The notes beneath the pieces were generated by a model. The model worked only from the letters and a program-made list of their open reading frames with translations, was not told the origin of the DNA and searched no databases. A stretch of 61,379 nt of DNA, counting the filler, from Candidatus Aminicenantales bacterium (GTDB lineage: Bacteria > Acidobacteriota > Aminicenantia > Aminicenantales > Saccharicenantaceae): NCBI GenBank assembly GCA_049512315.1. It is 4 parts of 4 records of this genome, joined end to end, with 100 filler letters (N's around TTAATTAATTAA, not from the genome) between each part and the next. Parts side by side here need not be neighbours in the genome. Positions count along the whole stretch, not along the records: positions 1 to 19,268 come from JBEKXF010000050.1; 3 more parts are not named here. One strand, written 5' to 3'. The first letter of the stretch is position 1, and every line of letters begins with the position of its first letter. The position numbers were made by a program, and so were the translations under genes. This document shows positions 1 to 17,962 of this stretch, in pieces.

Positions 1-40
1 GATTTTTACGCTAGAATCGGCGTCCGGGAAGGAGCGGAGG

Positions 41-136
41 ATGAAGAAGAATCGGTTCAAGGAGGTTAAGATCGCCTTCCACATGCGGAAGGCATACCAC
101 GCTATATATCACATATATGTCATAAAAAATGCTTAA
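41..136 (+). pseudogene. Possible remnant of an IS3-family OrfA N-terminus
   Basis: MKKNRFKEVKIAFHMRKA follows a GGAGG SD and resembles the MKKSRFxEEQIAxxLRxA start of IS3 OrfA proteins. It degenerates after about 18 codons. Confidence 0.25.
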
Positions 137-163
137 ACCCGCCTTCTATGATAGCGAAACGCA

Positions 164-318
164 AGCCCTTTGAGACATTTCTCTTCTCTCTATTTTCATA
201 ACTGCCTCGGCTTCTTGAACCACCCTTCTATCCGCGCCATGATGCGCACCATAACATTCGATTTCGGCTCCTAAACCTAATTCAGAACGCGACCCTCGCG
301 GGCCCGTTAAGGCGGGAC
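164..318 (-). ncRNA. Putative bridge RNA / seekRNA in the IS right end
   Basis: Non-coding region directly after the transposase stop. It contains 7-9 nt matches to both target flanks and a shorter match to the donor junction. RNA boundaries are approximate. Confidence 0.75.
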
Positions 319-1353
319 CTAGGCAGCCGATTGCTTCATGACATCCGGGATATAATCTCTCTTCTCCGTCAGGATGCGATAAATGATGGTCAAGAGCCGG
401 CGGGCCACAGCGATCTTGGCCACGTTCGGTCCTTTTCTCCGGGCCAGCCGGCCGTACATGGTCCGTAGCACGAGGTCCTTCTTGACCGCCGGGTACACCG
501 CTTCCAAAGCCGCCCACCTCAGCCAGCTGCTCCCTTGCTTGGTGATGGACCCGTGATACGTCCTCTCCCCCGATGAGTGCGTCGAAGGTATCAGCCCGGC
601 ATAGGAATGAAGATCTGCCGCCCTCGGAAACCGCTTGACGTCCGCGATCTCGACCGCCACTAAGACCGACAGCGTCTTGCCAAAACCCGGCACGGTGTCG
701 ATCCGTGGCGCCTCTTCCATCTCTCCATAGAGGGTGTTCACCAACCCATCCGACTTCTTGATATGGGTCTGGATCTCTTCGTATCCTTGGACAAGATCCC
801 TTAAAATCTCCTTCTCTCTGCTCTCCAGCGGCAGTTCGGCCACGAACTCTATGCCCTTCGAGCTGAACAGCCCGCTCTCCCGCTTCTCCACCGCCAACCG
901 CACTTCCTCCCTCTGTTGAGCCAACAGCACCCGGATCTTGTTCTTCACTTCGGTCTGCTTGCGAACCCAATAAGCCCGCAGCCTGATCACCCGTTGCGCC
1001 CGCCGGTTCCACTCCTTCCGCTGGTAGACCTCCGGGATGAGATCCGCCCTTAACAGGTGGGCCAACATCCGGGAGTCTCGCTTGTCGGTCTTGATCCGGG
1101 CATGGGCAATCGCCTTGACCTGAAGCGCGTTGGCAATCTTCACCTCGCCGCCCAGCTCCCGAAGCAGGTCCGCCATGACATATGACGAGCGACCGGCCTC
1201 CAATACAGCGGTGAACGGACGGCAGCCGTCTAGGAACCGGTCCACATCCCTCCTGAAGTTGGGGACCCGCCCGTTCTTCCGCTCCTGCCCATCCTCGTCC
1301 AAGACCGTCATCACAGAGACTTGCTTGTGATGGTCCACGCCGATAAAATACAA
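319..1353 (-). CDS. IS110-family (DEDD RuvC-like) transposase/recombinase, 344 aa
   Basis: N-terminal IGVDHHK, LEA, KTDKRDS, PGFG and YAGLIPSTHSSG motifs. TTG start with AAGGAGG SD. Confidence 0.96.
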   Translation of the reverse strand: MYFIGVDHHKQVSVMTVLDEDGQERKNGRVPNFRRDVDRFLDGCRPFTAVLEAGRSSYVMADLLRELGGEVKIANALQVKAIAHARIKTDKRDSRMLAHLLRADLIPEVYQRKEWNRRAQRVIRLRAYWVRKQTEVKNKIRVLLAQQREEVRLAVEKRESGLFSSKGIEFVAELPLESREKEILRDLVQGYEEIQTHIKKSDGLVNTLYGEMEEAPRIDTVPGFGKTLSVLVAVEIADVKRFPRAADLHSYAGLIPSTHSSGERTYHGSITKQGSSWLRWAALEAVYPAVKKDLVLRTMYGRLARRKGPNVAKIAVARRLLTIIYRILTEKRDYIPDVMKQSAA

Positions 1354-1728
1354 CCGCGCACCTCCTTAAGAGATTTTGGTCCGACGAGTAATCTAGCACA
1401 GCATTACCCGTCAAGGAGGTGCGTTTCGCTATCATGTTACCTAATTCTGATTAAAGGTGCTTAAGAGGAAAACGTCGTTCATATGGGGGAAACCAGATTT
1501 TCCCCTGGCAGATGCCGATTCCCATAGGTCATTCCTAATCCGTTTGTCGCCTGTTCGAGTCAGGGCAGGGGCATTTTATTTAATTCACTGATTCTGAAAA
1601 TGTCGGGGAGGGGGCAATAGGTCGGTGATCAGTTGCCCTTCAGCCCGGCCAACGGCGACCTCGATTGATTAAAGAGCAGTGGGTCAACTTAAAAAATCAG
1701 CGTTCGTACTGGAGTATTTTTACAAACT

Positions 1729-1995
1729 TCATTTGTTCTGCTGCTCCTCACTGCCTTTTGTGCAGAAATAGAAATTCTTTAGGCCCGATTTGCTCTTAAG
1801 AGGGCAGGTTCCGCAGATACATCCCTTCTCTTTGATGATGCACTTGCTCTTACCCATGATCAGGCAAAAAGCTTTTTCATGAGTTGCGCCTTGCTTGCTG
1901 CAATCTACGTAGTTTGGACAACCTTCACAAATACACAATTTGATTATTTCCGCATTTTGCATCTCAGGTTTTGCTGGCATTTCTTTTTTCATCAT
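1729..1995 (-). CDS. Small Cys-rich metal-binding protein (DUF2769-like)
   Basis: CICEGCP..C..FC..GKSKCI..GCICGTCP..FC pattern. Confidence 0.75.
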   Translation of the reverse strand: MMKKEMPAKPEMQNAEIIKLCICEGCPNYVDCSKQGATHEKAFCLIMGKSKCIIKEKGCICGTCPLKSKSGLKNFYFCTKGSEEQQNK

Positions 1996-2003
1996 TCTAT
2001 CTC

Positions 2004-2933
2004 CTAATTTGAGTCATAGTCATATTTCCAGTCAGTTCGTTTCGTATTTTTCACCAGCTTCGCAGCATGGATAACATTCTCGGCGATCAATTTCGTTGAG
2101 CCTTCATAACATTCTCCCAGGACTATTTTTTTGTCTGCAAAGGTCGAGTTGCATACAGATGACATGGCATACATGTTGCTGAATGGCGGAAATAGCATGC
2201 CAAAATGATTGAAGGTCATAAATAAGTTTGAGATGACCATTGAAGCACCTTCTTCATGGCCTGTGACGATGACTCCCGCAACCTTACCGATGAATCTTCT
2301 CAGCATACCGCTCCCGGGCACATTATTGTCTGCCGTGAGCTCAACAAACTTCATATGCTTGATATTAAGCTCCTTATCCTTGGGGACTTTTGGGTTGGCT
2401 GGTTTCAGGCTTCCGTCCAGACTGATGCACCTGTCGATAAAAGCTTTCAGCGGCGTCGAGACGTTAAAATTATTCACAGGTGTTGCTATGATCAAACAAT
2501 CTGCTTCCAGGATCTTGTCATATAGAATATTGCTCATATCATCGGCTTTGGGCGTTCCCTTGGGGTAGCAGGAGCAGTAAAAGTGGCATTGCGTGTTGGT
2601 TGTCGAGTAGCACGCCTTGCAATGTTCTATCCGGAACTCCCTCAGTTTGATGAGCTCAGTTTCTGCTCCGAGTTCTTTGCAGTGCTCAAGACAGACTTTT
2701 AGAAGCTCTTCAGAATTTGATTCTTCCTGGGCCATGTCATACTTGTCCCTTGCAGAGCCGGATATGCCAAGGACCTTAATTCTCTTTGTCTCGCTTTTCT
2801 TTACGCCCATCAACTCCGCTTCTTTGACTGTTTCCCTCTGGATTTGCTTAAAGCGTCCCAATGTTTTGGCATCGACTTGAAGAATTTTCATCAGTTTCTG
2901 GTCGGACAACTTCTTGCTCGCCAATTCTTTCAT
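2004..2933 (-). CDS. Flavodoxin family / NADPH-dependent FMN reductase (iron-sulfur flavoprotein-like)
   Basis: VLGISGSAR, CKAC..C..C cluster, ADCLIIATPV, LKAFIDR. Confidence 0.85.
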   Translation of the reverse strand: MKELASKKLSDQKLMKILQVDAKTLGRFKQIQRETVKEAELMGVKKSETKRIKVLGISGSARDKYDMAQEESNSEELLKVCLEHCKELGAETELIKLREFRIEHCKACYSTTNTQCHFYCSCYPKGTPKADDMSNILYDKILEADCLIIATPVNNFNVSTPLKAFIDRCISLDGSLKPANPKVPKDKELNIKHMKFVELTADNNVPGSGMLRRFIGKVAGVIVTGHEEGASMVISNLFMTFNHFGMLFPPFSNMYAMSSVCNSTFADKKIVLGECYEGSTKLIAENVIHAAKLVKNTKRTDWKYDYDSN

Positions 2934-3168
2934 ACTCCCCTCCCTCTTCGACAGCCGGCAAAATCCGGCGCGAAGAAACTAACAACAATGACTCGCAAAA
3001 TAATTTTCTAACCTAAAAAAAGAACCAAATAGGGGAGCGCCTCATCGCCTGTCCGCTCGGCACGAGGCCCCGCTAATTGCAGCGCGACGTCGCAGGCTGG
3101 GCGGCGGCCGAGGCCGCCAGGATAACCGAGAATGCCTTCGAAGCGATGATGACCGCTAGTGCTTTTCC

Positions 3169-3513
3169 TCACGCGGACTTCTCCAAATACTCCTTCAGGG
3201 CGACCGCGTTGTTGTATTTCGTTTCCTTGGCCCCGTAGACGAGCGTCACCGTCCCGCGCTTGGCCTCCGCGAGAAGATCGGCGATTTCCTTCCGACCCTT
3301 CAATTCCCTAAAGTAACGCCGTTTGAATTCGCCCCATTTGTCAGGTTCGTGCCCGAACCATTTTCTCAGGCCGGTCGTGGGGGAGACCTCCTTCGTCCAG
3401 AGGTCGATCTTGGCCTTGTCCTTGGTCAGACCGCGCGGCCAAAGCCTGTCCACCAGCACCCGAAGCCCGTCGCCGGCTTCGGGCTCGTCGTACGCCCTTT
3501 TGATCTTGATCAT
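3169..3513 (-). CDS. DUF488 (YeaO-like) family protein
   Basis: IKRAYD..DGLRVLVDRLWPRG..LRKWFGH..NNAVAL. Confidence 0.92.
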   Translation of the reverse strand: MIKIKRAYDEPEAGDGLRVLVDRLWPRGLTKDKAKIDLWTKEVSPTTGLRKWFGHEPDKWGEFKRRYFRELKGRKEIADLLAEAKRGTVTLVYGAKETKYNNAVALKEYLEKSA

Positions 3514-3525
3514 GGCGCCGTCTCC

Positions 3526-3765
3526 TCAACCGAGGTCCAGAGTCCCGATCTCGGGGATGCGTTCGAGGACTTCCGACCCATGGGGCGCCATGGATTCCAG
3601 GTCCGCCGTCAGGTCCTTTCCGGCCTGATGCAGCCCTTGATGATCGCCGTCCGCCCAGAGGAGGCTCTTCGTAACGTCGTAGATTCTCCCCTTGTAGGCG
3701 ACGAAGGCGGGCTCCCCGTTCTCCCCGTTGTTCTTTGCCAGGTCATCTTGGCTCAAAGTTCTCAT
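3526..3765 (-). CDS. Cytochrome b5-like heme/steroid-binding protein
   Basis: NGENG..AFVAYKGRIYDVT..W..G.H...H.AGKDLT..APHG. Confidence 0.88.
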   Translation of the reverse strand: MRTLSQDDLAKNNGENGEPAFVAYKGRIYDVTKSLLWADGDHQGLHQAGKDLTADLESMAPHGSEVLERIPEIGTLDLG

Positions 3766-4001
3766 GAGATGAGTTTCTTCCCTTCATTGAAGACATGAAT
3801 GCAGGTCACCGGACAGCTTTCGGCGGCCGCGATGTTGCACTTCACGTCGTCCATTTCCAGCTCTTCGTTCTCGCCGACACCGGTCGAGTCGATGAGATGA
3901 GAGAGTCCGTCCCCGGCCATCTCCCAAAATTCGGGACAGATGGCGACGCAATTCTCGCAGGCGATGCACAGGGGCCTTTCGATCTCGACCTTGTAACTCA
4001 T
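3762..4001 (-). CDS. Single-cluster ferredoxin
   Basis: CIACENCVAICP and AAESCPVTCI. ATGA overlap with the next gene. Confidence 0.9.
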   Translation of the reverse strand: MSYKVEIERPLCIACENCVAICPEFWEMAGDGLSHLIDSTGVGENEELEMDDVKCNIAAAESCPVTCIHVFNEGKKLIS

Positions 4002-4027
4002 TTGAGGGCCAGATGTTTATCCCCTGC

Positions 4028-4468
4028 TCAGCCGGTCTTCCTGGCACGCAGAGTGATCGTCGTTCCGGCCAGGGCCCGGGAGACAGGACAGCCCGCCTTG
4101 GCACTTTCGGCCAACGCTTGGAAAGCCTTCTCCTCGATCCCCGGCACGTCCGCCTCGGTGGTCAGGTTCACAGCCGTTATCCTGAAGCCGTCCCCGACCT
4201 TCTCGAGGCCGACCTCGGCCTCCGTCTGGATGCGTTTCGGGGGCGTGCCGGCCTGGGATAGCATCAGCGCGAAGGCCATAGAAAAGCAGCCGGCATGCGC
4301 GGCGGCGAGAAGCTCCTCGGGATTCGTCCCCGGCCCCTGCTCGAACCGGGAGGCGAACGAGTACGGGCCCTCGTAGGCCCCCCGGCCCACTTTCATGCGG
4401 CCCCGTCCGTCCTTGAGCGAGCCTTCCCGTAATCGGAGCGATTGAAATGGTATTCCGGCCCCCGCCAT
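4028..4468 (-). CDS. osmC: OsmC-family peroxiredoxin, N-terminus possibly replaced
   Basis: YSFASRFE..GTNPEELLAAAHAGCFSMA..AKAGCPVSRAL. The first ~13 residues are atypical. Confidence 0.85.
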   Translation of the reverse strand: MAGAGIPFQSLRLREGSLKDGRGRMKVGRGAYEGPYSFASRFEQGPGTNPEELLAAAHAGCFSMAFALMLSQAGTPPKRIQTEAEVGLEKVGDGFRITAVNLTTEADVPGIEEKAFQALAESAKAGCPVSRALAGTTITLRARKTG

Positions 4469-4471
4469 GTG

Positions 4472-6118
4472 TCAAGAACTCAAAGTCCTAAGGGCCCGAG
4501 CTCTTCCTCGATCATCCCCCGGGTTGATCGGAATGCCGAACCCGCCGCCATCGGCGATATATTCCATCATCTCGCGCTCGCAGTCCTCCAACTCTTCCCT
4601 TGCCGCCGACTCCCTTTCGTGCCCGAGGTCCGGGTGCTCGTGCCTGTGGGCGACTAGTCCGGGCGTCGGCTGCCTTGCTACTATTCTTTTGCACACGTGG
4701 TAGATCGCCCCGGCCGCTGCCGAGGCCATGTCGTCATTGGCGTTCTTCGGGTGGTCGATCCTTTCGGCTCCACTGGGCAGCGTCTGGAGTTCGAGCCGCT
4801 TCAGCTGGTCAATCAGCTTTTTGTTGTCCAGAAGGACCACGGCTCCGGCTTGGAGGAGCGCCTTCAGCTTAAGGTAGAACTCCGTCGCGCTGGCCTTGCT
4901 CTGGCTCAGGGCGATTCGGTGCCGCCTGAGTTGGCTCTCTAGCGAGGCGAACGCGTACCTGTCGCCCCAGCACTCGTCGATTCCGTATTCTCGAAGAAGG
5001 CCGGCATATTCGTCGATGACCTGGATGAAGTCGAACGGGGGAACGTTCTCTCGGACAAGGTCTAGATAAACCATTTCGTTGGAGGCGTGGGCGATGGCCA
5101 GCGTCATGCTGTCGGTCTTGCCCGCCGACGCGTCGATGAAGGCAACGTATTTCATGCCCTTTTCAGGCGGTGTTTCTGAGCCCTTGGCCGCGGCCCGGAG
5201 CTTCTCCTCATCGAAGAGCGCCCCAATGTCGTCCCGGAAAACGGCCTCGTATTCGGCCCTGCAGCGTTCGGGGTCCCTTTCCATGTCTCGGGCGATCTTC
5301 CTGTCTGAGAAGGTCGGGTTCAGAAGTTTCGTCGGGGCCTTGAAGACGAGGGTGTCGGCGTCGTCTCGCCCCCAGAACTTTTCATGGAGAACCCAGAGTG
5401 ACCCCGCCTTCCTATTCGGGCTGGAGATTCCTATCAGCCGGCCGCCCGGGATGATCGAGGGCGTCAGGGCCGAAACGAGCTCGTCGACGTTGTCGTTCGG
5501 GAAGAACGCCACCTCGTCGAGGACGACCAGGGCAAGGCGCCAGCCCCTGACCGACCTGAAGTCCGACGCCTTGACCGCGATGTGGGCCCCGTTGGCGAGG
5601 TCGAGCTCGTCGTTCGTCTCGCGCCTGACGAGCCTCTGGAAGGGCTTGAGGAACCGCTTGATGTTGCCGAAGACGATGCCCGCCTGCTCCCGCGTGTCGG
5701 CCAGGCAGAAGATGTTCCACTGTTCGCCCGGGCCGACCTTCTTCTCCCAGCCGCCCAGGGCCGCCTCGTAGGCCGCCACGAAGCCCATCGTCGTGGACTT
5801 CCCGCCCTGCCTCCCGGCGATGATGAAAACCTCCTCGTAGCCCCCGGTCCTGGGGAACATGCGGCCCGTGCAAGTTCGGAAGATTTCGAGCTCGGGCGGG
5901 GTAAGCGGAAGACCGTAGATCGCCTTCAGGCAGACCACCCAGTTCGACCACGTCGCGGGGTCGTGGAACTGCTTCCCGAAGGCCCGCCTGTCGAGCATGG
6001 CCTCGACGATGTTCCCGGGGTGGGTCTTTTCGCTGTGGCGGACGCAGAACAGTTCGCCCCGGAGGGCCTTCATGCCGCAGGGGCGGCCGTCCACGCGGAG
6101 CGCCTGGCATTGGGCCAT
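4472..6118 (-). CDS. Terminase large subunit-like ATPase-nuclease with N-terminal CCCH zinc finger
   Basis: Walker A GRQGGKST, Walker B VVLDEVAF, motif III ISSP, RNase H-like FIDASAG..DS and C-terminal DDMASA. Confidence 0.85.
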   Translation of the reverse strand: MAQCQALRVDGRPCGMKALRGELFCVRHSEKTHPGNIVEAMLDRRAFGKQFHDPATWSNWVVCLKAIYGLPLTPPELEIFRTCTGRMFPRTGGYEEVFIIAGRQGGKSTTMGFVAAYEAALGGWEKKVGPGEQWNIFCLADTREQAGIVFGNIKRFLKPFQRLVRRETNDELDLANGAHIAVKASDFRSVRGWRLALVVLDEVAFFPNDNVDELVSALTPSIIPGGRLIGISSPNRKAGSLWVLHEKFWGRDDADTLVFKAPTKLLNPTFSDRKIARDMERDPERCRAEYEAVFRDDIGALFDEEKLRAAAKGSETPPEKGMKYVAFIDASAGKTDSMTLAIAHASNEMVYLDLVRENVPPFDFIQVIDEYAGLLREYGIDECWGDRYAFASLESQLRRHRIALSQSKASATEFYLKLKALLQAGAVVLLDNKKLIDQLKRLELQTLPSGAERIDHPKNANDDMASAAAGAIYHVCKRIVARQPTPGLVAHRHEHPDLGHERESAAREELEDCEREMMEYIADGGGFGIPINPGDDRGRARALRTLSS

Positions 6119-6126
6119 CGGCGGAC

Positions 6127-6714
6127 TCAGGCCTCCTGGAGACTTGCCCTTACGTCAGTAGGCAAGGCGAGCGGCCGTATCACCCTGGCCTTAACCATCT
6201 CGTCCAGCTTGGCCCTGATCGCCAGGAGGTCCCTCTTCGGCCGCAGTTCCCTGACGGAGACGACCCGCCGTTGCTCCTTCAGATAGCCAGGATGGCAGCC
6301 ATCCTGCATCCTCTCGACGGCTTCCTTGATAATCAGTTTCTTCACCCAAACAAGTGGATCGTCGATGTCCACGGGCGCAAGCCTGGGGACCCCACGATAT
6401 GCCGAGACGCTCTCCTGGTTTATTCTTAGCACTTCGTGCTCGTGGGCCTCGTTCACGATTTCCAGGATCCAGCGGCCTTCCCACGACGGGGGAGGCGCCC
6501 ATTTCGGGTTGACCTTGTGGCTCACGCTGCCGTCCTTCTCGAATACGATCCGGCTGTAGCGGGCATAGCTCGTCGTGGGCGCGATCGAGTGGATCCGCTT
6601 CGTCTCGCCCGGGCCGAGCCTCAGCATCTCCTTCCTGTACTCCAGGACGATCTTTTCCCCGTCGGTCTTGTTGACCAACTCGGTTTCAAACAAGTCATTA
6701 GGGTTTATTTCCAT
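6127..6714 (-). CDS. Hypothetical protein (paralogue of 6861-7385)
   Basis: 195-aa ORF with AGGAG SD. Shares collinear motifs with its neighbour. Confidence 0.8.
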   Translation of the reverse strand: MEINPNDLFETELVNKTDGEKIVLEYRKEMLRLGPGETKRIHSIAPTTSYARYSRIVFEKDGSVSHKVNPKWAPPPSWEGRWILEIVNEAHEHEVLRINQESVSAYRGVPRLAPVDIDDPLVWVKKLIIKEAVERMQDGCHPGYLKEQRRVVSVRELRPKRDLLAIRAKLDEMVKARVIRPLALPTDVRASLQEA

Positions 6715-6860
6715 TTGTTACTCCTAAAAGGGAATGGAGGGCGGGGCGGGAGCACGTTCCGTCAGGAGCAGACCCGGCCGCCCCCGTCCCGCCGCATTCT
6801 TTTGTTGCACCAGGCGATTTGAGAAGAGGAGCAGTTCGAATGAAGCCAGTTTCTGTCCTT

Positions 6861-7385
6861 TCATCTCTCGCTTCCCGCCTTCGCCAGAATCTCGTCAAGC
6901 CTCCTGAGGTCCGCCTCGCCGCGCTCGATCCAGTCGTCCCTGAGGCTCTCCCGCCTATAAGCGTAGCCTCGGAACGTCCTCGACTCGACCCATTCCGCGG
7001 TCACCGCGATGCGGAGCTCCTTGCAGGCGGCGAGCGGGGAGCTGAGCGGGCAGGACACGATGACCGGGATGCCGCGGGGGACATGGACCTCGCCGACGCC
7101 CTCGAGCTCCCTGGTCTCCACGTCCCCGCCGTCCATGTTCCTGAGGACGATGGGCCATTCCCCGAAGGCCGCCTGAGGCATTTCGAAGCCGGGGCGCGGA
7201 GTCAGGACGACGCCGCCGTCGGGCGCCCACTCGACGCGGGAATATCGGCTGTAGAGGGTGCGGGGCGAGACGCTCTCCAGGGTCCTCCTGTTGCCCGGAA
7301 GGATGGCGAAAAGGGGCGGGCCTGTCGTGTCCCAGACCGTGATCGGCCTGCTCGTAGAATTGATAAACTCGGTTTCGTATGTCAT
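6861..7385 (-). CDS. Hypothetical protein (paralogue of 6127-6714)
   Basis: 174-aa ORF with GGAGG SD. Shares collinear motifs with its neighbour. Confidence 0.8.
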   Translation of the reverse strand: MTYETEFINSTSRPITVWDTTGPPLFAILPGNRRTLESVSPRTLYSRYSRVEWAPDGGVVLTPRPGFEMPQAAFGEWPIVLRNMDGGDVETRELEGVGEVHVPRGIPVIVSCPLSSPLAACKELRIAVTAEWVESRTFRGYAYRRESLRDDWIERGEADLRRLDEILAKAGSER

Positions 7386-7587
7386 TTTCGTTCCCTCCGC
7401 ATAGACTAGGGGAAACGGATTCAGTTTCCGGGAGTTTTGGTAAATCGCTGGGGGGAGAGGGGGGCCTAAGGGGAATCGAACCTCTGACCGGAGTCGAAGT
7501 CCATGCGCCGCATGTTCAAATCAAGGCGGGGAGTAGGTCGTTTGTATCGCCAATTCAAGGTAGGTCTGGTGGGTTGATGAGAGAAAA

Positions 7588-10500
7588 TTAGCTGCCTGTC
7601 AGCCCGGCCAGCCGCTTCTTGGCGTCCTCAACCTCGGGCAGGCCGGCATCGGCGTCCTTCCAGAGGTCAAGGAATTTGCGGTAGTTCGTTATGGCCCGCG
7701 CCTTGTCCCCTTGCTGCTCGGCGATTTTGCCTAGCATGTAGAACGCCTTGGCGTAGATATCGCCGGGCCAAACCCTGCCCACTGCCAGCAGCGTGATCTT
7801 CTCGTATTCTTTGCGGGCTTTGTCTAAGGCCCCAGCCCTATAATAAGCCTGGGCCAGGCAATCAAAATAAAGAGCGTGCTCACTACCTACGAAATATTGA
7901 TTAGGAAGGAGAGATATGGCTTCGTTGAAATCATCAACAGCTTTGCTCAGGTTGTTTCTCTTGAGCTCGATTATTCCTTCCACGTTACGGTACATTCTCA
8001 TAAGTTTTTTGTTTAATCCTTTTTCTATCAGGGATCTCAGTTCGACCGCAGCCTGCTGGGCTCTATCTATCTGATTTCTCTCTAGGAATATCATAGCCCT
8101 CCAATAGATACAGCCTCGCTCATGAGCCGAGAAGTCGTTTACAGTGGCAACAGCCCAGGCCTTATCGCATTCTTTCAGGGCCTCTTCATAATTTCCCAAT
8201 TTCAGATGGAGATATGCCAAATATAGATGAAAACGTGATTCATAGGCCCACTGATTGAGCTCCTTCGCCTCATCAATTCCAAGGTCACAATGATTCTTTG
8301 CCACTCCAAATTTTCCCTGAAGCACACATAGAGTGGCCAAGCTATCCCTGCCTCTCAAGTGCACTATCTTTGCTTCTGACTCCAGCAGCGTTTCGAAGTC
8401 TTTTTCGGCCGTACTCAAGTTGCCTTGGCAGAGTGAAATCTGGCCTCTCAACAAGACGCTATCGTTATCACCCGGATTAAGCATGAGTGCCTTTCCCACT
8501 TCAAGGAGGGCAGGGGCGTATTCCCCCTGACAGAGATGGATGAGAGCAAGCTCCTGGCGCATATTGAAATTATCGCCGAAAGTTTTGATGTAGAACTCCT
8601 GAGCTTCTGTCGCTTTTTCGTATTGCCCCTTGGCCATATAATCAGATGCTATATCCGCATAAGGGTATATAGAAGAATCTTTATACTTAATTGCTGCTCC
8701 ACTCCGTTCAATGGCCTTATCCCACTCTTCTAAACCCATATAGAGTTCAGCACCGTTTATATTTCCAATGCGATCATCTGGATAAAGCTGCAGTAGTTTA
8801 TTATAGGTTTCAATAGCTTTGTCGTAGGTTCTTTCTGAGTACCTATAAAAATCACCTTGGATGATATAGCGCTCCCGCTCCGAGACCCGGTCGGACAATT
8901 CGAAGGCTTTTTGACGGTTCTTTTTAGATTCAGAATAATATCCGAACTGATCATAAGCAATAGCTAAGCTCCTGTAGGCCATGGCAAACCCAGGGTCGAT
9001 AGCTATGGCTTTTTCCATCAGCGGTATGCTTTTGCGATACTCATAATTCGTGTGATATCTTCTGGCTTCACTATAATACTTATACGCTTCCGGAGAAGTG
9101 GTTGTGATCTTTCCAACCTCCATATCGTGGTCTGCAGCTATCTGATCCGGCGTGAGGTTCATGTCCGACTTGATTGTCCTGGCCAGCTCATCCACTTTGG
9201 CAAAAATCTCTTTCTCGCCGTTGCATTCAATATTAAGGGGGCTTATGACTTCTCCTGTGCGAGGTTTCTGAAGCGTCAGGGTCATGATGATCGTTTCCCC
9301 GGCTTTCATCAGGCTCCCGCTCAATGTGTAGACAGCCCCTCCTTCGTCGGCCACCTTGACCAGGTCTTCTGTGGAATATTTCTTGGCTTCCTGAAGATTC
9401 AGCCTTCTTAAAATACTGAAGATCCTGTCGCTGCTCAGAACACTGATGAATTTTGATTGGGAGAGCTTTGTAATGAGCAACTCAGTTAGCCCGGTCTTCC
9501 AGGCATCCAGGCTCTTGTCTCCGGAAATGTTTTCAAAGTAGACGATGGCAAGAGAGGGTTTGCCCGAGGGAGGAGGAACGATATGGTGTTTGGGGAGGAA
9601 ACGCCAGATGACCAAGGCAATGAGGGCAAAGGCCGCGACTCCCAGAGCCGGAATCAAGAGCTTCTTTGCCCCAAAGGTCACCGTGATTTGCCTAGAGGTG
9701 AGCGGCTTTCTCTTGGGGATTTCGTGAGCCGTCGTCGGGAGACCCTTTTCTATATTCTCGAGTTCTGATCTCACGTCGTCGGCACTCTGATATCTCTTGC
9801 TCTTGTCCTTCTCCAGGCAGCGAAGGACTAGACGGCTGAGGTCATCCGGAATCTGATCGTTGAACTCTTTGGGATCTTTGGGCTTTTCAGTCTTGTGTTT
9901 CACGGCGATGCTGAGCGGCGTATCGCCTTCGAACGGAGCCCGGCCCGTCAACATCTCGTAAAGAACGATTCCCAGAGAATAAATGTCCGATCGCTGATCC
10001 GCTTCTTTCCCCTCGACCTGCTCCGGGCTCATATATTCTGGCGTCCCGATGACCACACCCTCGCCGGTCAGGCTTTTGCCGTGAAGCGATCTGGCAATCC
10101 CGAAATCCATTATCCGGGCATTGCCCTCCCTGTCGATGATGATGTTGGAGGGTTTGAGATCCCTGTGAATGACTCCCAGCCGATGAGCCTCCGCCAGCCC
10201 CTCGGAGATTTGCTTGGCGATGGCGATTGCTTTCCCGATCGTCAACTGGCCTGTCTGCCTGATCAATCCTCTCAGGTCCTGTCCCGCCACGTATTCCATG
10301 GTGATGAAGTAGGTCCCCTTCTCCTCCCCAAGGTCAAACATGCGGCAGACATTCCTATGGGATATCATCCGGGTCGTTTTCAATTCGTTGCTGAACCGTT
10401 CGATCGTATTCTTATCGGAAGAGATTTCCGGCTTGATAAGCTTCAGGGCGATCTCTGCCTTGATCTTCTTGTCCTCTACCCGGTATACTTTGCCCATCCC

Positions 10501-10698
10501 ACCCCGGCCGAGCTCCTCGATGATCTCGTACCTTCCTGCAATTGTGGTTCCTCTGCTTAACTCATGAACGGGCGTCTGGAGGGTTTCTGTCATGACCGGA
10601 GGGTTAGCCTTGGGCGAAGGTAGCTGGGTGCCACAATCGGCGCAGAACTGCTTGGTTTCTGGATTCTCAGAATGACATTTCGGACACTTGATGGCCAA
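7588..10698 (-). CDS. Zn-ribbon / Hanks-type Ser/Thr kinase / TM / TolB-N-like / TPR receptor kinase, 1036 aa
   Basis: CPKC..CADC, LGRGGMGKVY, ALK, HRDLKPSN, DFG and GTPEYMSPE motifs, one hydrophobic TM segment, then TPR repeats. Confidence 0.95.
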   Translation of the reverse strand: MAIKCPKCHSENPETKQFCADCGTQLPSPKANPPVMTETLQTPVHELSRGTTIAGRYEIIEELGRGGMGKVYRVEDKKIKAEIALKLIKPEISSDKNTIERFSNELKTTRMISHRNVCRMFDLGEEKGTYFITMEYVAGQDLRGLIRQTGQLTIGKAIAIAKQISEGLAEAHRLGVIHRDLKPSNIIIDREGNARIMDFGIARSLHGKSLTGEGVVIGTPEYMSPEQVEGKEADQRSDIYSLGIVLYEMLTGRAPFEGDTPLSIAVKHKTEKPKDPKEFNDQIPDDLSRLVLRCLEKDKSKRYQSADDVRSELENIEKGLPTTAHEIPKRKPLTSRQITVTFGAKKLLIPALGVAAFALIALVIWRFLPKHHIVPPPSGKPSLAIVYFENISGDKSLDAWKTGLTELLITKLSQSKFISVLSSDRIFSILRRLNLQEAKKYSTEDLVKVADEGGAVYTLSGSLMKAGETIIMTLTLQKPRTGEVISPLNIECNGEKEIFAKVDELARTIKSDMNLTPDQIAADHDMEVGKITTTSPEAYKYYSEARRYHTNYEYRKSIPLMEKAIAIDPGFAMAYRSLAIAYDQFGYYSESKKNRQKAFELSDRVSERERYIIQGDFYRYSERTYDKAIETYNKLLQLYPDDRIGNINGAELYMGLEEWDKAIERSGAAIKYKDSSIYPYADIASDYMAKGQYEKATEAQEFYIKTFGDNFNMRQELALIHLCQGEYAPALLEVGKALMLNPGDNDSVLLRGQISLCQGNLSTAEKDFETLLESEAKIVHLRGRDSLATLCVLQGKFGVAKNHCDLGIDEAKELNQWAYESRFHLYLAYLHLKLGNYEEALKECDKAWAVATVNDFSAHERGCIYWRAMIFLERNQIDRAQQAAVELRSLIEKGLNKKLMRMYRNVEGIIELKRNNLSKAVDDFNEAISLLPNQYFVGSEHALYFDCLAQAYYRAGALDKARKEYEKITLLAVGRVWPGDIYAKAFYMLGKIAEQQGDKARAITNYRKFLDLWKDADAGLPEVEDAKKRLAGLTGS

Positions 10699-10796
10699 GC
10701 GAGTTCCCCCTCCTCGAGCCTGGCCTCAGATTAGCAGAGGGATGGGCGGGAAGTCAACCAAAGCGGATTCGAACCCATTCCGATGGGAGTAACAAT

Positions 10797-11663
10797 TTAG
10801 TCCCGGCGAACGTCCCTATTCGCTCTGGCTCCAACGATTTTGCCCGCTTTGCAGCGGACTTCGTCTTCCCGCCTGGCCAGTTCCGCCTCGGCCTCCGCCC
10901 ACAATTCGTCGACCTGGGCCTCGGTCACGGGTTCCGTCGGGGCCTTGCGCTTAAGCATGGAAATGGAAGCCGGAGACAGGCCGAATATCTCGGCCAGCTC
11001 TTTCCCTTCGAAGGTGTCCGTGATGCCGGTCCGCAGGAGCCGCCGGATCAGGATGCGCCTCTGGTCTTTCAGGCTGGGGAGGGTCAGCCTGCGGTCGGCG
11101 TTCTCCAGGGTGACGGCGGCAAAGAAGAGCTCGATGGCCCGGTCGGCGGTCATCCGGCCGGCCTCCACTTCCGCGAAGAGGCGTTTCAAAAAGCGCAGTT
11201 CTTTTGACCCTCGGGCCTCAATCCAGCCCTTGGCCAGGGGAAGGGCCGGGGCTTGCGCTTCGGCGGGCTCTAGGCCCGTCTCGCCGGCCTCCAGCAGGGC
11301 TTCGGGGTTTGCATCTGCGTGCCTTCCGAGCTGAACGCCCTCCGGATAGGCCTCCTCGTTTCCCTCGTTATCTGCTTTGAGCCTGATCTGGCTGGCCCAG
11401 CAGACGGCGGCCTTGTTTTCCTTTAGCCGCCGGTATTTTATGGCCTGGAGGTAGTTCCTCCAGTCGCCCTTGCTCGCGGGCCAGCCGCGCCACCGGCCCG
11501 AGGCGACGAAGTCCTGGATGAGGTCGTCGGCCTCGTAGAGCCCGTCCCTGAGCGTGAGGCAGTCCCTCAAGTCGCGGAGGACCTCGAAGGCCATGACGTT
11601 CATGGCTCGCCTGGCCTCGGGGGACGGTCCCTCGATTGTCATAGGTCTGTTTTGGGTTTCCAT
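10797..11663 (-). CDS. Hypothetical protein with C-terminal helix-turn-helix
   Basis: GKELAEIFGLSPASISMLKRK HTH pattern. Starts 8 nt after the recombinase stop. Confidence 0.65.
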   Translation of the reverse strand: METQNRPMTIEGPSPEARRAMNVMAFEVLRDLRDCLTLRDGLYEADDLIQDFVASGRWRGWPASKGDWRNYLQAIKYRRLKENKAAVCWASQIRLKADNEGNEEAYPEGVQLGRHADANPEALLEAGETGLEPAEAQAPALPLAKGWIEARGSKELRFLKRLFAEVEAGRMTADRAIELFFAAVTLENADRRLTLPSLKDQRRILIRRLLRTGITDTFEGKELAEIFGLSPASISMLKRKAPTEPVTEAQVDELWAEAEAELARREDEVRCKAGKIVGARANRDVRRD

Positions 11664-11671
11664 TTAAATCC

Positions 11672-12283
11672 TCAAAGAAATCTCGCTGACCGCCGTTCCA
11701 TTTCCCTTTCATGTTCGGCGGTGTTCATGTCCGATAAATATCTCTCCGAACTTGCCAAGTTCTTGTGCCTGAGCCACCTGGCGATCTGCACGAGCGAGTC
11801 GCCCTTGGCCGCCATCTGGCTCGCGCAGGTGTGCCGGAGGTCGTGGGGGCTGTGGGGGTTCGCGAGCCCGGCCTTCCCGCAGGTCAGCTGAAACAGCTTC
11901 CACCCCGACTCCTGGGTCATGTGGCCGGTCCTGGGCAGCACCTTTGACGGGAACAGGTGGGGGTTTTCCTTCGCCTCCGGCCGGCCCGCCCTCTCCTTCA
12001 GCCACGCCCTGAGCTTCCTCTCGAGCCTCTCCGGGATGTCGTAGGTCCTCGAGAGCCCGCCCTTCTCCGCCCTGACCGTGATCTGGTGGGCGTCGAGGCC
12101 GACGTCGTCCAGCCGGAGGGAGACGGCCTCGCCGATCCTCATCGCGAAGAAGTACACGAGCGACCAGAGGCAGTCCCACTTCCTCCCGTGCCTCCTGGCC
12201 GCCTTCATGAAGGCCTCGAGCTCTCCGTCGGTGAAGTACCGGACCCGGCCGTTTAGGGCCGTCCCTTTGGGGCGTCCGGCCAT
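11672..12283 (-). CDS. Minimal tyrosine recombinase (catalytic domain only), 203 aa
   Basis: AMRIGE (R), EKGG (K), HDLRH, LRHKN (H), SERY (Y). Confidence 0.92.
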   Translation of the reverse strand: MAGRPKGTALNGRVRYFTDGELEAFMKAARRHGRKWDCLWSLVYFFAMRIGEAVSLRLDDVGLDAHQITVRAEKGGLSRTYDIPERLERKLRAWLKERAGRPEAKENPHLFPSKVLPRTGHMTQESGWKLFQLTCGKAGLANPHSPHDLRHTCASQMAAKGDSLVQIARWLRHKNLASSERYLSDMNTAEHEREMERRSARFL

Positions 12284-12284
12284 C

Positions 12285-12650
12285 CTACTTCCCCTTTTGT
12301 TTGCCGAAGTATTTCAGGTTGTTCGCCTCGAGGATCTTCAGGTCGGCGCGGAATGCCGCATCGCCCTTCCCGGCTTCGTTATTCGCAAGGCCTTGGCACT
12401 CGATGATGAACTCGACCGCCATCTTCCGGTTCCCCTTCGGCGGCTGGCCGGCCCATCGTTCCCGCGCAATGCGCGCGGCGATGCCGGCGATGACTTCGTC
12501 CCCGTGGGACCTGTCGTCCGTCAGGTAGTCGACGGCCTCGGGAAGCGAATCGAGCCCGTGGGCCTCAGCGACCGCCTCGGCACCGGATCTTTTCCCCTCC
12601 TCAGGCTCGGCCTTCGCCTTCGCTTGGGTCTTGACATTGGCTTGTTTCAT
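12285..12650 (-). CDS. Hypothetical protein
   Basis: ATG at 12650 with GAAGGAGG SD. Its stop abuts the recombinase start. Confidence 0.7.
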   Translation of the reverse strand: MKQANVKTQAKAKAEPEEGKRSGAEAVAEAHGLDSLPEAVDYLTDDRSHGDEVIAGIAARIARERWAGQPPKGNRKMAVEFIIECQGLANNEAGKGDAAFRADLKILEANNLKYFGKQKGK

Positions 12651-13146
12651 TCGCGTGCCCTCCTTCAGCACTCGAGAATAGGTATACCGTGAAAAAGTGA
12701 GCTTGCACATAGCCTAACTAAAAAATTTGCAACTCTTGCTTCCTCCCCAGGTATGGCCGGCCTGGGAGGGGGCGCCCAAAATCGGGGCAAAAATTTGCTT
12801 GGGGCACCAAAAGGGCCTTCGGGGCGTCAAAAGACTCGCGCATCGCCCCATACGGCGGCCGCCGGACGGCCCCCGTTCGCCCCAGGTCGCGTCCGGACGG
12901 CCCGGGCAAGCATAGGGCAAGGGCCCGCCCCGCCTTGGGCCCCCTGGGTGATCCGGGGGAGGGGCGTGCGGGCGGGGAGTTATACCCAGGGAAATGTTTT
13001 GATTATGCCTGATTCGGCCATATCGCAGACTCTATTTAATTTGTAGGTTTTACAGGGATCGGCTTGTCTCTTACGGATTTCATTCAGAATTGATTCAAAA
13101 TGGTTCGGCCGGATGTAGACCTTGCAGATAGGTGTTGCCGAGAGAG

Positions 13147-14043
13147 TTACTGCCGCTGTGTTTTAAAAGCGCTGGGGTAAGCTTTAATAAGCCGGCTAGA
13201 ATCATCCCCATCTATTACGCCATAATAAATCGCGGAACCTTCAATTGCCGATTTCGCCCTGGCAAATTCGATCATTTGCTCGACTACCGACTCATGAATT
13301 TGCCCCCAATACTGCACGACAAACACACTTGCGGCACTCTTGAAAAGGCGCTGTATCTGGTCTCCATTCTTTCCCATTTTTTTTGGTGTTAAGATGCCTG
13401 TGGTACCTTTTCCCTTAAATGCAAAAGCTGTCGGCATGCGGCGACTGAGCACGCGCAATCGGGTCGTAAAGAGGTCGTTTCGTTCGCCTCCCCAATCTTG
13501 AAAATCGCCTACCTCGCCCATAATTTTCTTAATGCCTTTCTTGAAACGCTGTTCAGGCATCGGAACATACGCGCCCGGCTCAACACGCATCCCTACAACT
13601 TTGTCGAACGAATCGATATCGTCGATAGTTATGTTGTGGGCAAGAACGCGATTCTGTGCAAAACGAATTTTAATATTACCTTGTTTGTCTACCTTCGGCT
13701 GGGTTTTTGTGGGGAGTTTAGAAAATGCCCGTGGGTTTCTTACATATCTTAGTATTTCGTTCTTCCGGCGCGAGTAAAAACGGTCTTTCTGATAACCCGT
13801 CTGACCGGCTAGCCTGATTTGTTTTACGATTCCATTGTCTGCAAGGACCAATGCTGCGGTTAATACTTGCTTCCTGTCTAACCCGGTAGTTTGGGCAATT
13901 TCATTGACAAACTTAGTGTGCTTTTTGCCCCGGTAAATCGCCTTGAATACTATTAGCCTTTGAGGAGATTTACCTAAGACTTTGACTGCGTGTGCAACTT
14001 GCTCGTTACTATTTGACCGAGCGTCTGAAACGCTGATTGGCAT
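13147..14043 (-). CDS. Winged-HTH plus putative PD-(D/E)XK (Mrr-like) nuclease-fold protein, 298 aa
   Basis: N-terminal VNEIAQTTGLDRKQV..L.DNGIV HTH. C-terminal E..DWGGERNDLF..FAFKG..DQIQRL..IDG pattern. The fold call is inference. Confidence 0.6.
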   Translation of the reverse strand: MPISVSDARSNSNEQVAHAVKVLGKSPQRLIVFKAIYRGKKHTKFVNEIAQTTGLDRKQVLTAALVLADNGIVKQIRLAGQTGYQKDRFYSRRKNEILRYVRNPRAFSKLPTKTQPKVDKQGNIKIRFAQNRVLAHNITIDDIDSFDKVVGMRVEPGAYVPMPEQRFKKGIKKIMGEVGDFQDWGGERNDLFTTRLRVLSRRMPTAFAFKGKGTTGILTPKKMGKNGDQIQRLFKSAASVFVVQYWGQIHESVVEQMIEFARAKSAIEGSAIYYGVIDGDDSSRLIKAYPSAFKTQRQ

Positions 14044-14047
14044 CTAT

Positions 14048-14423: not shown

Positions 14424-14442
14424 TCTTTCCTCCCCCAATATT

Positions 14443-14928: not shown

Positions 14929-14937
14929 AGGCTTTCT

Positions 14938-17949: not shown

Positions 17950-17962
17950 GACACCTCCCTTT

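What the first reader, a model, noticed from the sequence alone, without database searches (positions are those of the whole stretch)
138..1447. IS1111-group element whose right-end RNA visibly encodes guides for its own target and donor (bridge/seek RNA)
Removing the element at the duplicated core gives an empty site, on the element strand, of TCAGAATT-AG-AAGGCGGG. The non-coding RNA after the transposase stop contains four matches in order. CCCGCCTT (316-309) is the exact reverse complement of the right flank 138-145. GAATTAG (283-277) is identical to the left flank plus core 1447-1441. ATGTTAT (257-251) is complementary to left-end GTAACAT with one G:U. ATAG (231-228) matches the right end plus core, weakly. 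These matches are seen directly. IS110/IS1111 recombinases are known to be RNA-guided. Assigning the matches to target and donor loops is inference. This is an intact, potentially reprogrammable recombinase from a probably uncultured lineage.
Basis: partly seen in the sequence, partly recalled or inferred. Interest (0 to 1): 0.8.

Follow-up and report, generated by a model that had tools for sequence, protein, structure and literature searches.

The report
IS1111-type insertion sequence with bridge RNA
This is an intact jumping gene of a known RNA-guided kind (IS110/IS1111 family) from an uncultured peat bacterium, and relatives show that its small RNA spells out both its landing site and its own ends; it is a clear example but not a new kind of system.

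Summary
The four matches are real and sit at the stated coordinates. The interpretation (IS1111-group element with a 3' bridge/seekRNA) holds. The recombinase (319-1353, minus strand) carries both IS110-family domains, the DEDD residues and the GL-P----SG motif.

Across 31 distinct guide pairs from relatives, almost all from Candidatus Aminicenantes MAGs, the guides covary with their own flanks. Cognate versus non-cognate matches are 5.5 vs 2.1 of 7 and 4.5 vs 1.9 of 7, with 0 of 20,000 permutations reaching either value. The donor guides covary with the element ends. A consensus fold supported by covariation places all four guides in two internal loops.

One correction is needed. The element is GTAAC...CATAGA (1440-145), flanked by AG cores, so the empty site is TCAGAATT-AG-GCGGG. 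That exact site occurs in three related genomes. Two metagenome contigs skip exactly 1,298 bases here. With this boundary the "weak" fourth match becomes an exact 7-mer.

The target lies in a roughly 117-nt repeat module. No RNA data are available. Verdict: a new member of a known kind, of modest interest.

The parts
145..1440 (-). The insertion sequence proper, GTAACATG...CTATCATAGA, 1296 bp. It is 1298 bp if one AG core copy is counted with it, as in the Hall-lab convention of a 7-bp left extension.
   Evidence: Ends were fixed by the empty site in L032 versus the occupied L005. They are supported by 41 distinct insertions, by exact empty sites in relatives and by the 1298-base skip in metagenome contigs.
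1441..1442 (-). Left copy of the core dinucleotide AG (CT on the plus strand).
   Evidence: AG is present at the left junction in 40 of 41 distinct insertions.
143..144 (-). Right copy of the core dinucleotide AG.
   Evidence: AG is present at the right junction in 37 of 41 insertions. The 4 with AA are among the 5 elements whose guide has UU instead of CU opposite the core; the fifth, L009, keeps AG.
1443..1450 (-). Left target half, TCAGAATT.
   Evidence: Sequence. It matches guide 286-279 at 7 of 8 positions. The C14 copy's guide matches it at 8 of 8.
131..142 (-). Right target half, GCGGG, followed by TTTAAGC of the repeat module.
   Evidence: Sequence. GCGGG is the reverse complement of guide 316-312.
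319..1353 (-). Recombinase gene, 344 aa, with a TTG start and an AAGGAGGT ribosome-binding site at 1367-1360.
   Evidence: Pfam PF01548 (58.8 bits) and PF02371 (68.3 bits). NCBIfam NF033542 'IS110 family RNA-guided transposase', 211 bits against a cutoff of 140. PDB relatives are ISCro4 and IS621. D7, E52, D90, D93, S261 and G262 are invariant in 9 relatives.
1420..1435 (-). Left subterminal inverted repeat, ATGATAGCGAAACGCA, 5 nt in from the end.
   Evidence: A 16-nt exact inverted repeat was found by script.
148..163 (-). Right subterminal inverted repeat, TGCGTTTCGCTATCAT, 3 nt in from the end.
218..330 (-). Bridge/seekRNA core. It starts inside the last codons of the gene, and the stop codon lies within helix P1.
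- P1: 330-320 pairs with 273-264.
- P2: 308-300 pairs with 295-286, with a GCGA loop.
- P3: 263-260 pairs with 221-218.
- P4: 248-244 pairs with 237-233.
   Evidence: RNAalifold on 32 distinct RNAs. Pair counts show 95.9% of cells paired against 34-44% when the partners are slid, and 55 double-change cells against 19.7 in shuffles, 0 of 500 reaching the observed value.
309..316 (-). Target guide 1: CCCGC, then CU (pairs with the core), then U. It is complementary to the sense strand of core plus right flank. The final U matches the last A of the right end.
   Evidence: Cognate 5.48 of 7 against non-cognate 2.13 of 7 across 31 guide pairs, with 0 of 20000 permutations reaching this. It lies in the loop between P1 and P2.
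275..286 (-). Target guide 2: UC(U)GAAUU, then AG, then GU. It is identical to left flank plus core plus the first two bases of the left end.
   Evidence: Cognate 4.52 of 7 against non-cognate 1.94 of 7, with 0 of 20000 permutations. The base after the core equals the first base of the left end in 29 of 30 cases, including 3 with A.
251..257 (-). Donor guide 1: AUGUUAU, complementary to the left end GTAACAT with one G:U pair.
   Evidence: It matches 4-7 of 7 positions in 23 of the 24 distinct combinations and changes with variant left ends, for example GTTATAT with ACATAAC and ATAACAT with ATATTAT. The degenerate-ended L010 matches only 3 of 7.
224..231 (-). Donor guide 2: AUAGA, then AG, then G. 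It is identical to the last 5 nt of the right end plus the core plus the first base of the right flank.
   Evidence: Exact 7 of 7 in 23 of 24 distinct combinations; the one miss reflects my own boundary error in L092. It covaries with the right end (ATAAA gives AUAAAAG; ATGGG gives AUGGGAG). The next base equals the first flank base in 22 of 30 cases, with 11 of 20000 permutations reaching this.

Best explanation
This is a 1296-bp IS1111-group insertion sequence of the IS110 family. It encodes a DEDD/serine recombinase and, overlapping the end of that gene and running into the right end, a bridge RNA (also called seekRNA).

The RNA has two internal-loop modules. In the first loop, CCCGC-CU pairs with the sense strand of core plus right flank, and GAAUU-AG pairs with the antisense strand of left flank plus core. 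Together these specify the roughly 15-bp site TCAGAATT-AG-GCGGG. In the second loop, AUGUUAU pairs with the left end and AUAGA-AG pairs with the antisense strand of right end plus core. Together these specify the joined ends of the excised circle.

By analogy with IS621 and ISEc11, a recombinase tetramer holding both loops would exchange strands at the shared AG (CT) core. The element would then enter without a target duplication.

Shown here: the anatomy, the RNA structure by covariation, guide/flank and guide/end covariation, the precise ends, and the existence of empty sites.

Inferred: that the RNA is made (probably co-transcribed with the gene and then processed), that it binds the protein, and the chemistry of strand exchange.
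For: Protein. Both Pfam domains are present. NCBIfam names it an IS110 family RNA-guided transposase. The PDB relatives are ISCro4 and IS621. The catalytic D, E, D, D and SG residues are invariant in the alignment. The sequence GLIPSTHSSG fits the IS1111 motif GL-P----S(t)G (translation; motif from PMC11187229 section 6).

Architecture. There are 16-nt subterminal inverted repeats. The non-coding stretch after the gene is 174 nt, against 87 nt before it.

Target guides. Across 31 distinct guide pairs, cognate matches exceed non-cognate matches (5.48 vs 2.13 and 4.52 vs 1.94 of 7; 0 of 20000 permutations each). Examples: L006 matches 10 of 10, L005 9 of 9 and L007 9 of 9. The core pairing also covaries: the four insertions with AA at the right junction are among the five elements whose guide has UU there.

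Donor guides. They follow variant ends.

Structure. Four helices are supported, with 95.9% of cells paired against 34-44% when slid, and 55 double-change cells against 19.7 in shuffles. All four guides lie in the internal loops. G:U pairs are frequent in P3 and P4 (for example UG in 29 of 32 sequences at columns 94/129), which fits an RNA read from the sense strand.

Other insertions. The C14 copy is 86% identical and has left flank TCAGAATTAG with guide UCAGAAUUAG (10 of 10). Its right flank matches at 6 of 7. Loose ends of metagenome contigs share only GAATTAG and AGGCG with the window's flanks.

Ends., as detailed in the observation check.

Literature. IS1111 seekRNAs carry the top-strand match 5' of the bottom-strand match, and the two matches overlap in the target (PMC11187229 section 9). 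That is the arrangement seen here.
Against: - No RNA run holds this sequence, so expression, RNA ends and processing are unknown.
- A single-sequence fold of the RNA region is no better than shuffles (z = 0.20; z = -0.40). It differs from the consensus, pairing the first target guide with the second donor guide region.
- Helix P3 has only 4 pairs and no double compensatory change.
- Left-flank matches are weaker than right-flank matches (4.5 of 7). A few elements (L006, L012, L023, L073) need a 1-nt shift or match poorly.
- The guide for the left end is not followed by bases that pair with the core, unlike IS621.
- No Rfam family matched.
- No promoter-like site for the RNA was found on the element's strand.
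- The own genome has no perfect empty site, only one intact copy, and a second copy that is degenerate. Present-day activity is therefore not shown.
- Related sequences are not independent, so the permutation counts overstate significance somewhat.
Confidence: 0.9

Rival explanations
1. The matches are relics and not guides. On this view the non-coding region contains leftover copies of old junctions, for example a former right end ATAGAAGG and a former left junction GAATTAGGT. Site choice would be made by the protein reading the subterminal repeats and the target DNA directly.
For: Two of the matching stretches (GAATTAG+GT at 283-275 and ATAGAAG+G at 231-224) read exactly like the present left and right junctions. 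Duplicated junctions would look the same.
Against: The matching positions change in step with 31 different targets, while the surrounding scaffold stays conserved. They sit in the loops of a structure supported by compensatory changes. Half of the guides are reverse complements and not copies. Relics would decay rather than track new targets. Experiments on other IS1111 members show that the RNA is required and reprogrammable (PMC11187229, abstract and sections read).
Confidence: 0.03
2. The element is a dead fossil. The RNA-guided design is real, but this copy no longer moves, so it is not a usable recombinase.
For: - Only two copies exist in the genome. They differ by 14%, and the second has lost 6 codons in the catalytic serine loop and gained a stop codon.
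- All 7 empty modules in the own genome have an AA core that mismatches the guide.
- No clean circle junction was seen. The one head-to-tail contig has 12 extra bases between the ends.
Against: - The window copy has an open 344-aa frame with all catalytic residues, a strong ribosome-binding site, perfect 16-nt repeats and guides that fit its own flanks.
- Metagenome contigs both with and without the element at this site exist in peat samples, so presence is polymorphic.
Confidence: 0.25
3. The guide-bearing region acts as folded single-stranded DNA, for example during replication, and not as RNA.
For: Nothing in the sequence alone proves transcription. No RNA data exist here.
Against: Conserved G:U pairs in P3 and P4 would be C:A mismatches on the other strand and are weak in DNA. 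In the family's studied members the RNA co-purifies with the protein and is seen in cryo-EM structures (PMC11187229 and PMC11208158, passages read).
Confidence: 0.02

Closest known systems
IS1111-family seekRNA elements ISEc11, ISKpn4, ISPa11 and ISPst6 (Siddiquee et al. 2024, PMC11187229)
   Same: - DEDD recombinase of 330-350 aa with the GL-P----S(t)G motif.
- Subterminal inverted repeats with short terminal extensions. The 7-bp left extension of that convention corresponds here to AG + GTAAC.
- A long non-coding region after the gene.
- The top-strand match lies 5' of the bottom-strand match, and the two overlap in the target.
- No target duplication.
   Different: - The hosts are uncultured Aminicenantes.
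- The best tblastn match in the PLSDB plasmid collection, which comes largely from cultured bacteria, is only 41% identical.
- The target is different: a repeat module next to a tRNA-like piece.
- There is no experimental evidence for this element.
- I did not compare its RNA directly with theirs, because their sequences were not fetched.
IS621 bridge RNA system (Durrant et al. 2024, PMC11208160; Hiraizumi et al. 2024, PMC11208158)
   Same: - Two internal loops, each with one guide for the bottom strand and one for the top strand, meeting at a 2-nt core.
- The core here is CT when read on the strand opposite the gene, the same dinucleotide as in IS621.
- In that frame the 5' guide of each loop is sense and the 3' guide is antisense.
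- The 3' guides are followed by 1-2 bases that match the partner DNA after exchange, like the handshake guides of IS621.
   Different: - The RNA lies after the gene, in the right end, not before it.
- The subterminal repeats are long (16 nt) instead of 2-3 bp.
- The guide for the left end lacks core pairing.
- The protein match is weak (E = 7.9e-8, C-terminal domain only).
IS4321/IS5075 and the attC-targeting IS1111 members (Partridge & Hall 2003; Post & Hall 2009; seen only as citations in PMC11208160, otherwise recalled)
   Same: These are IS1111 members that land at one fixed position in a conserved sequence present in many copies and belonging to other mobile DNA.
   Different: The target here is a module of unknown nature found near integrase and defence genes. 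Whether it is part of a mobile element is not shown.

Membership tests
IS110 family, IS1111 group | N-terminal RuvC-like DEDD domain (PF01548) | tested here: met
   One search gives 58.8 bits against a cutoff of 29. D7, E52, D90 and D93 are invariant in 9 relatives and align with ISCro4.
IS110 family, IS1111 group | C-terminal Tnp domain (PF02371) with the motif GL-P----S(t)G | tested here: met
   One search gives 68.3 bits. GLIPSTHSSG lies at residues 253-262. S261 and G262 are invariant.
IS110 family, IS1111 group | Subterminal inverted repeats of 7-17 bp with short terminal extensions | tested here: met
   A 16-nt exact repeat at 1435-1420 and 163-148. The extensions are 5 nt (7 with the core) on the left and 3 nt on the right.
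IS110 family, IS1111 group | The longer non-coding region lies downstream of the gene | tested here: met
   174 nt (318-145) after the stop codon against 87 nt (1440-1354) before the start.
IS110 family, IS1111 group | Site-specific insertion with no target duplication beyond the shared core | tested here: met
   The exact empty site is found in relatives. Metagenome contigs skip 1298 bases, which equals the element plus one core copy. 41 insertions show the AG cores.
IS110 family, IS1111 group | Circular intermediate with abutted ends that forms a junction promoter | tested here: inconclusive
   By eye, TTGCGT (164-159) and TAACAT (1439-1434) would lie 17 nt apart across an RE-AG-LE joint. 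The one head-to-tail contig found has 12 extra bases between the ends. No direct test was possible.
Bridge RNA / seekRNA | Structured RNA with two internal loops flanked by conserved helices | tested here: met
   P1, P2 and P4 show compensatory changes. P3 shows only one-sided changes.
Bridge RNA / seekRNA | One loop carries guides for both strands of the target, overlapping at the core | tested here: met
   (31 guide pairs; 0 of 20000 permutations).
Bridge RNA / seekRNA | The other loop carries guides for the two element ends | tested here: met
   The right-end guide is exact in 23 of 24 combinations and covaries with the end. The left-end guide matches 4-7 of 7 positions in 23 of 24 combinations and covaries with the end.
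Bridge RNA / seekRNA | The RNA is expressed and bound by the recombinase | not testable with these tools
   No RNA run is listed for this sequence.
Bridge RNA / seekRNA | Changing the guides retargets recombination | not testable with these tools
   Only the natural proxy is available: relatives sharing one scaffold carry different guides and sit in matching sites.

The most novel reading that the evidence does not exclude
This Aminicenantes clade is a natural reprogramming series. About 30 guide sets sit on two closely related RNA scaffolds, and each is found at its matching site. Read on the strand opposite the gene, the clade follows the IS621 rules exactly: a CT core, a sense guide 5', an antisense guide 3', and handshake bases after the 3' guides. 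If so, the 'reversed order' reported for IS1111 RNAs would be only a flip of the DNA frame. In addition, the host's own 7 copies of the target module all carry an AA core that mismatches the guide and all are unoccupied. This hints that a single core change protects sites from this element.
Probability: 0.35. Interest if true: 0.45.

Novelty: new member of a known kind. Interest (0 to 1): 0.3.

Why it matters
It adds a well-documented natural example of RNA-guided recombination from a phylum with no cultured members. Its ends are fixed to the base. Its RNA structure is supported by covariation. About 30 natural guide/target pairs could help in designing or benchmarking bridge recombinases of the IS1111 type, which are less studied than IS621. 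It also shows how easily the ends of such elements are misplaced by a few bases when only one copy is read. It does not reveal a new mechanism.

Tried and rejected
- Rfam on window 1-2000 at E up to 10 gave only two chance-level hits (sR52, RAGATH-8) and no family for this RNA.
- Single-sequence folds of 138-330 and 196-338 were not better than shuffles and did not show the consensus structure.
- tRNA scans of the flanks with ARAGORN found none, although Rfam calls a partial tRNA beside one repeat copy.
- The promoter/terminator scan of 100-1500 found one plus-strand promoter-like site, at chance level, and no terminator.
- Sequencing runs: no RNA holder is listed, so expression could not be examined.
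- I considered that the ~117-nt target module is a tRNA promoter, an att arm of integrative islands, or a MITE-like inverted pair. I could not decide among them.
- I did not scan the joined RE-LE sequence for a promoter, because that would need a joined sequence. The two hexamers were read by eye only.
- Not used: structure prediction, complex prediction, and the large protein searches (search for homologous proteins, the search of protein representatives).
Full report
WHAT IS THERE

On the minus strand of the window lies a compact element. It begins GTAACATGATAGCGAAACGCA at 1440 and ends TGCGTTTCGCTATCATAGA at 145. It holds one long gene, 319-1353, 344 aa, with a TTG start and an AAGGAGGT ribosome-binding site.

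The protein carries both IS110-family domains: PF01548 at 58.8 bits and PF02371 at 68.3 bits. It exceeds the cutoff of NCBIfam NF033542, 'IS110 family RNA-guided transposase', with 211 bits against 140. Its only solved relatives are the bridge recombinases ISCro4 (E = 1.4e-11) and IS621 (E = 7.9e-8).

D7, E52, D90, D93, S261 and G262 are invariant in an alignment with eight relatives of 54-80% identity. The stretch GLIPSTHSSG fits the IS1111 motif GL-P----S(t)G described in PMC11187229 (section 6 read).

The ends carry a perfect 16-nt inverted repeat set 5 nt in from the left end and 3 nt in from the right end. The non-coding stretch after the gene (174 nt) is twice the length of the one before it (87 nt). 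These are the hallmarks of the IS1111 group.

THE OBSERVATION

The reconstructed empty site, however, is wrong by 3 nt.

Four independent results place the right end after CATAGA (position 145), followed by the core AG (144-143):
- The left flank of a sister element (L032) contains an unoccupied site, TTTAGTATG-AG-TACTGC. In L005 the same site is occupied as TTAGTATG-AG-[GTAAC...CATAGA]-AG-TACTGC.
- Among 41 distinct insertions with definable ends, AG precedes the left end in 40 and follows CATAGA-type right ends in 37.
- The predicted empty site TCAGAATTAGGCGGGTTTA occurs verbatim at 5 places in 3 related genomes (G006, G012, G014), with near matches in 4 more, and none for the reversed control pattern.
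- Contigs from two peat/soil metagenome runs join position 141 to 1440, skipping exactly 1298 bases. That equals 1296 for the element plus 2 for one core copy. The joint has a 3-base ambiguity because the base after each AG also happens to be G.

With these ends, CCCGCCTT (316-309) is five guide bases, two bases pairing the core, and one base matching the last A of the element. The 'weak' ATAG becomes ATAGAAG (231-225), an exact copy of the last five bases of the right end plus the core.

COVARIATION

I collected relatives from 61 related genomes (17 had a match) and from the GTDB species genomes (211 relatives, 80 kept). Nearly all are titled Candidatus Aminicenantes MAGs. A minority are labelled Eubacteriales, Chloroflexi/Dehalococcoidales or Desulfaltia. 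The more distant ones (archaea, Polyangiaceae) were not usable.

Fifty-eight elements had definable ends, and 41 of these were distinct insertions. Forty had the RNA anchors; L085 was dropped for lacking them. These gave 31 distinct guide pairs.

The seven guide bases next to the core match their own right flank at 5.48 of 7 on average, against 2.13 of 7 for other elements' flanks. For the left flank the figures are 4.52 against 1.94. In both cases 0 of 20,000 permutations reached the observed mean. Relatives are not independent, so these counts are generous. The individual cases are still plain: L006 matches 10 of 10, L005 9 of 9, L007 9 of 9 and L013 10 of 10. A few cases fit poorly or need a one-base shift (L006 left, L012 left, L023, L073).

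The core pairing also covaries. The four insertions with AA after the right end (L010, L011, L064, L071) are among the five elements whose guide has UU instead of CU there; the fifth, L009, has UU opposite AG.

The donor guides follow the ends:
- The right-end guide is exact in 23 of 24 distinct combinations. The one miss is my own boundary error in L092. The guide changes with the end: ATAAA gives AUAAAAG, and ATGGG gives AUGGGAG.
- The left-end guide matches 4-7 of 7 positions in 23 of 24 combinations and changes with variant ends: GTTATAT pairs with ACATAAC, ATAACAT with ATATTAT, and GTAGCAT with ACGCUAU. L010, whose left end is degenerate, matches only 3 of 7.

RNA STRUCTURE

An alignment of 32 distinct RNAs gives a consensus of four helices. 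In window coordinates they are:
- P1: 330-320 with 273-264. It includes the stop codon, so the RNA begins inside the gene.
- P2: 308-300 with 295-286, capped by GCGA.
- P3: 263-260 with 221-218.
- P4: 248-244 with 237-233.

In this structure 95.9% of cells form standard pairs, against 34-44% when the 3' partners are slid by 1-3 columns. There are 55 double-change cells against 19.7 in shuffles, with 0 of 500 shuffles reaching that number. P1, P2 and P4 have compensatory changes. P3 has only one-sided changes and is the weakest helix.

The two target guides lie in the internal loop between P1 and P2. The two donor guides lie in the loop between P3 and P4.

A fold of the single sequence does not show this structure and is no better than shuffles. 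No Rfam family matches.

OTHER INSERTIONS OF THE SAME ELEMENT

The genome holds a second copy on contig C14, 86% identical. Its gene is degenerate. It has three in-frame deletions, one of which removes LIPSTH from the catalytic loop, and a premature stop. Its RNA region is nevertheless 96% identical over 120 nt.

Its left flank is TCAGAATTAG and its guide reads UCAGAAUUAG (10 of 10). Its right flank AGGGGGG fits the guide at 6 of 7.

In the metagenome contigs, loose ends show further insertions that share only GAATTAG on the left and AGGCG on the right with the window's flanks.

THE TARGET

Both copies sit in a roughly 117-nt module that occurs about ten times in this genome and also in related genomes.

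The module lies beside a partial tRNA-like sequence (Rfam tRNA, 37.6 bits, model positions 10-63). It is found near genes for a tyrosine integrase, GmrSD, a Shedu SduA-like protein and a Ser/Thr kinase. In G012 two modules flank the tRNA-like piece as an inverted pair. What the module is remains open.

All 7 unoccupied copies in the own genome read TCAGAATT-AA-GCG(C/G)G. Their core mismatches the guide, and most have a second mismatch as well.

MECHANISM

By analogy with IS621 (PMC11208158, passages read) and ISEc11 (PMC11187229), a recombinase tetramer would hold target and donor through the two loops and exchange strands at the shared core.

Read on the strand opposite the gene, the core is CT, as in IS621. 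In that frame each loop has its sense guide 5' and its antisense guide 3', also as in IS621. In the same frame the bases just after the 3' guides behave like IS621's handshake guides:
- The base after GAAUUAG equals the first base of the left end in 29 of 30 distinct cases, including three with A (19 of 20,000 permutations reach this).
- The base after AUAGAAG equals the first base of the right flank in 22 of 30 cases (11 of 20,000 permutations).

This frame-flip reading is my inference.

The RNA has no promoter-like site of its own. In studied IS1111 members it is co-transcribed with the gene from a promoter formed at the circle joint and then processed (PMC11187229, discussion passage read). 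Here TTGCGT (164-159) and TAACAT (1439-1434) would lie 17 nt apart across an RE-AG-LE joint. I read these two hexamers by eye and did not scan the joined sequence.

WHAT IS NOT SHOWN

Expression of the RNA, its ends, binding to the protein, circle formation and present-day activity are all unshown. No RNA run holds the sequence.

NOVELTY

Bridge RNAs in the right end were predicted for 93% of ISfinder IS1111 elements (PMC11208160, passages read) and demonstrated for four of them (PMC11187229). This element is a clean new member from an uncultured phylum. Its protein is at most 41% identical to anything in the plasmid collection. It is not a new kind of system. I searched the paper library only for 'IS1111' with 'bridge RNA' and for 'seekRNA'. 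I did not search for Aminicenantes elements specifically, and I did not open any supplements.

Noticed in passing
L002 (G000:C14:7449-8692, minus strand): The second copy of the element is 86% identical. Its gene has three in-frame deletions, one removing LIPSTH beside the catalytic serine, and a premature stop. Its RNA region is 96% identical over 120 nt. Its left flank is the repeat module but its right flank is not, which suggests a later rearrangement.
   Followed up: partly
window 109-142 and 1442-1520; G000 C24:8330-8480, C26 (2 copies), C27, C34 (2 copies), C39, C8, C30, C15: A ~117-nt repeat module is the target of the element. It contains two direct TGTGACA repeats and lies beside a partial tRNA-Arg(CCG)-like sequence. 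Copies sit near an integrase, GmrSD, a Shedu SduA-like gene and a Ser/Thr kinase. In G012 (L128:1300-1560) two modules form an inverted pair around the tRNA-like piece. It could be an att arm of integrative islands or a small mobile element.
   Followed up: partly
G000 C24, C26, C27, C34, C39 (7 places): All unoccupied target modules in the own genome have AA where the guide expects AG. Related genomes carry the AG form unoccupied. A single core change may keep sites free of this element.
   Followed up: no
window 1354-1432, minus strand: The 5' leader folds into a strong hairpin in which GCACCUCCUU (1422-1413) pairs with the ribosome-binding site AAGGAGGUGC (1367-1358). The energy is -34.5 kcal/mol with z = -3.5. 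The two halves are conserved in all relatives printed. This is a likely brake on translation.
   Followed up: partly
window 159-164 and 1434-1439, minus strand: TTGCGT near the right end and TAACAT at the left end would be 17 nt apart in an RE-AG-LE circle, forming a sigma-70-like promoter. The same spacing holds in the 55%-identity group (TTGCAT ... TAACAT). This was read by eye only.
   Followed up: no
run X4, 252-nt contig laid on window 1323-1442 and 143-262: A head-to-tail joint of the element's ends has 12 extra bases between the two AG cores. It could be two tandem copies a few bases apart, or an unusual circle.
   Followed up: no
window 1530-1598: A second tRNA-like 3' fragment in the left flank is repeated on C24 (2 copies), C28 (6 copies), C27 and C34. 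ARAGORN calls no tRNA here.
   Followed up: no
window 19269-19368, 34185-34284, 48099-48198: The window is several contigs joined by runs of N. Only 1-19268 is contig C50. The element lies 145 nt from that contig's end, and contig C77 overlaps the first 122 bases at 100% identity.
   Followed up: no
L005 (G039), between the ribosome-binding site and the start codon: This sister element carries about 35 extra bases in its leader. They resemble the target sequence of another sister element from the same genome (L021, L028, L032). All of these sit beside REP-like hairpins.
   Followed up: no
L094 and L083: The left side of these elements abuts the inverted right end of another copy, a head-to-head arrangement. 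They were left out of the counts.
   Followed up: no
window 1729-2933, minus strand: The neighbouring genes are AT-rich compared with the 61% GC genome. One is a DUF2769 protein and the other an FMN reductase-like protein with a long N-terminal extension.
   Followed up: no
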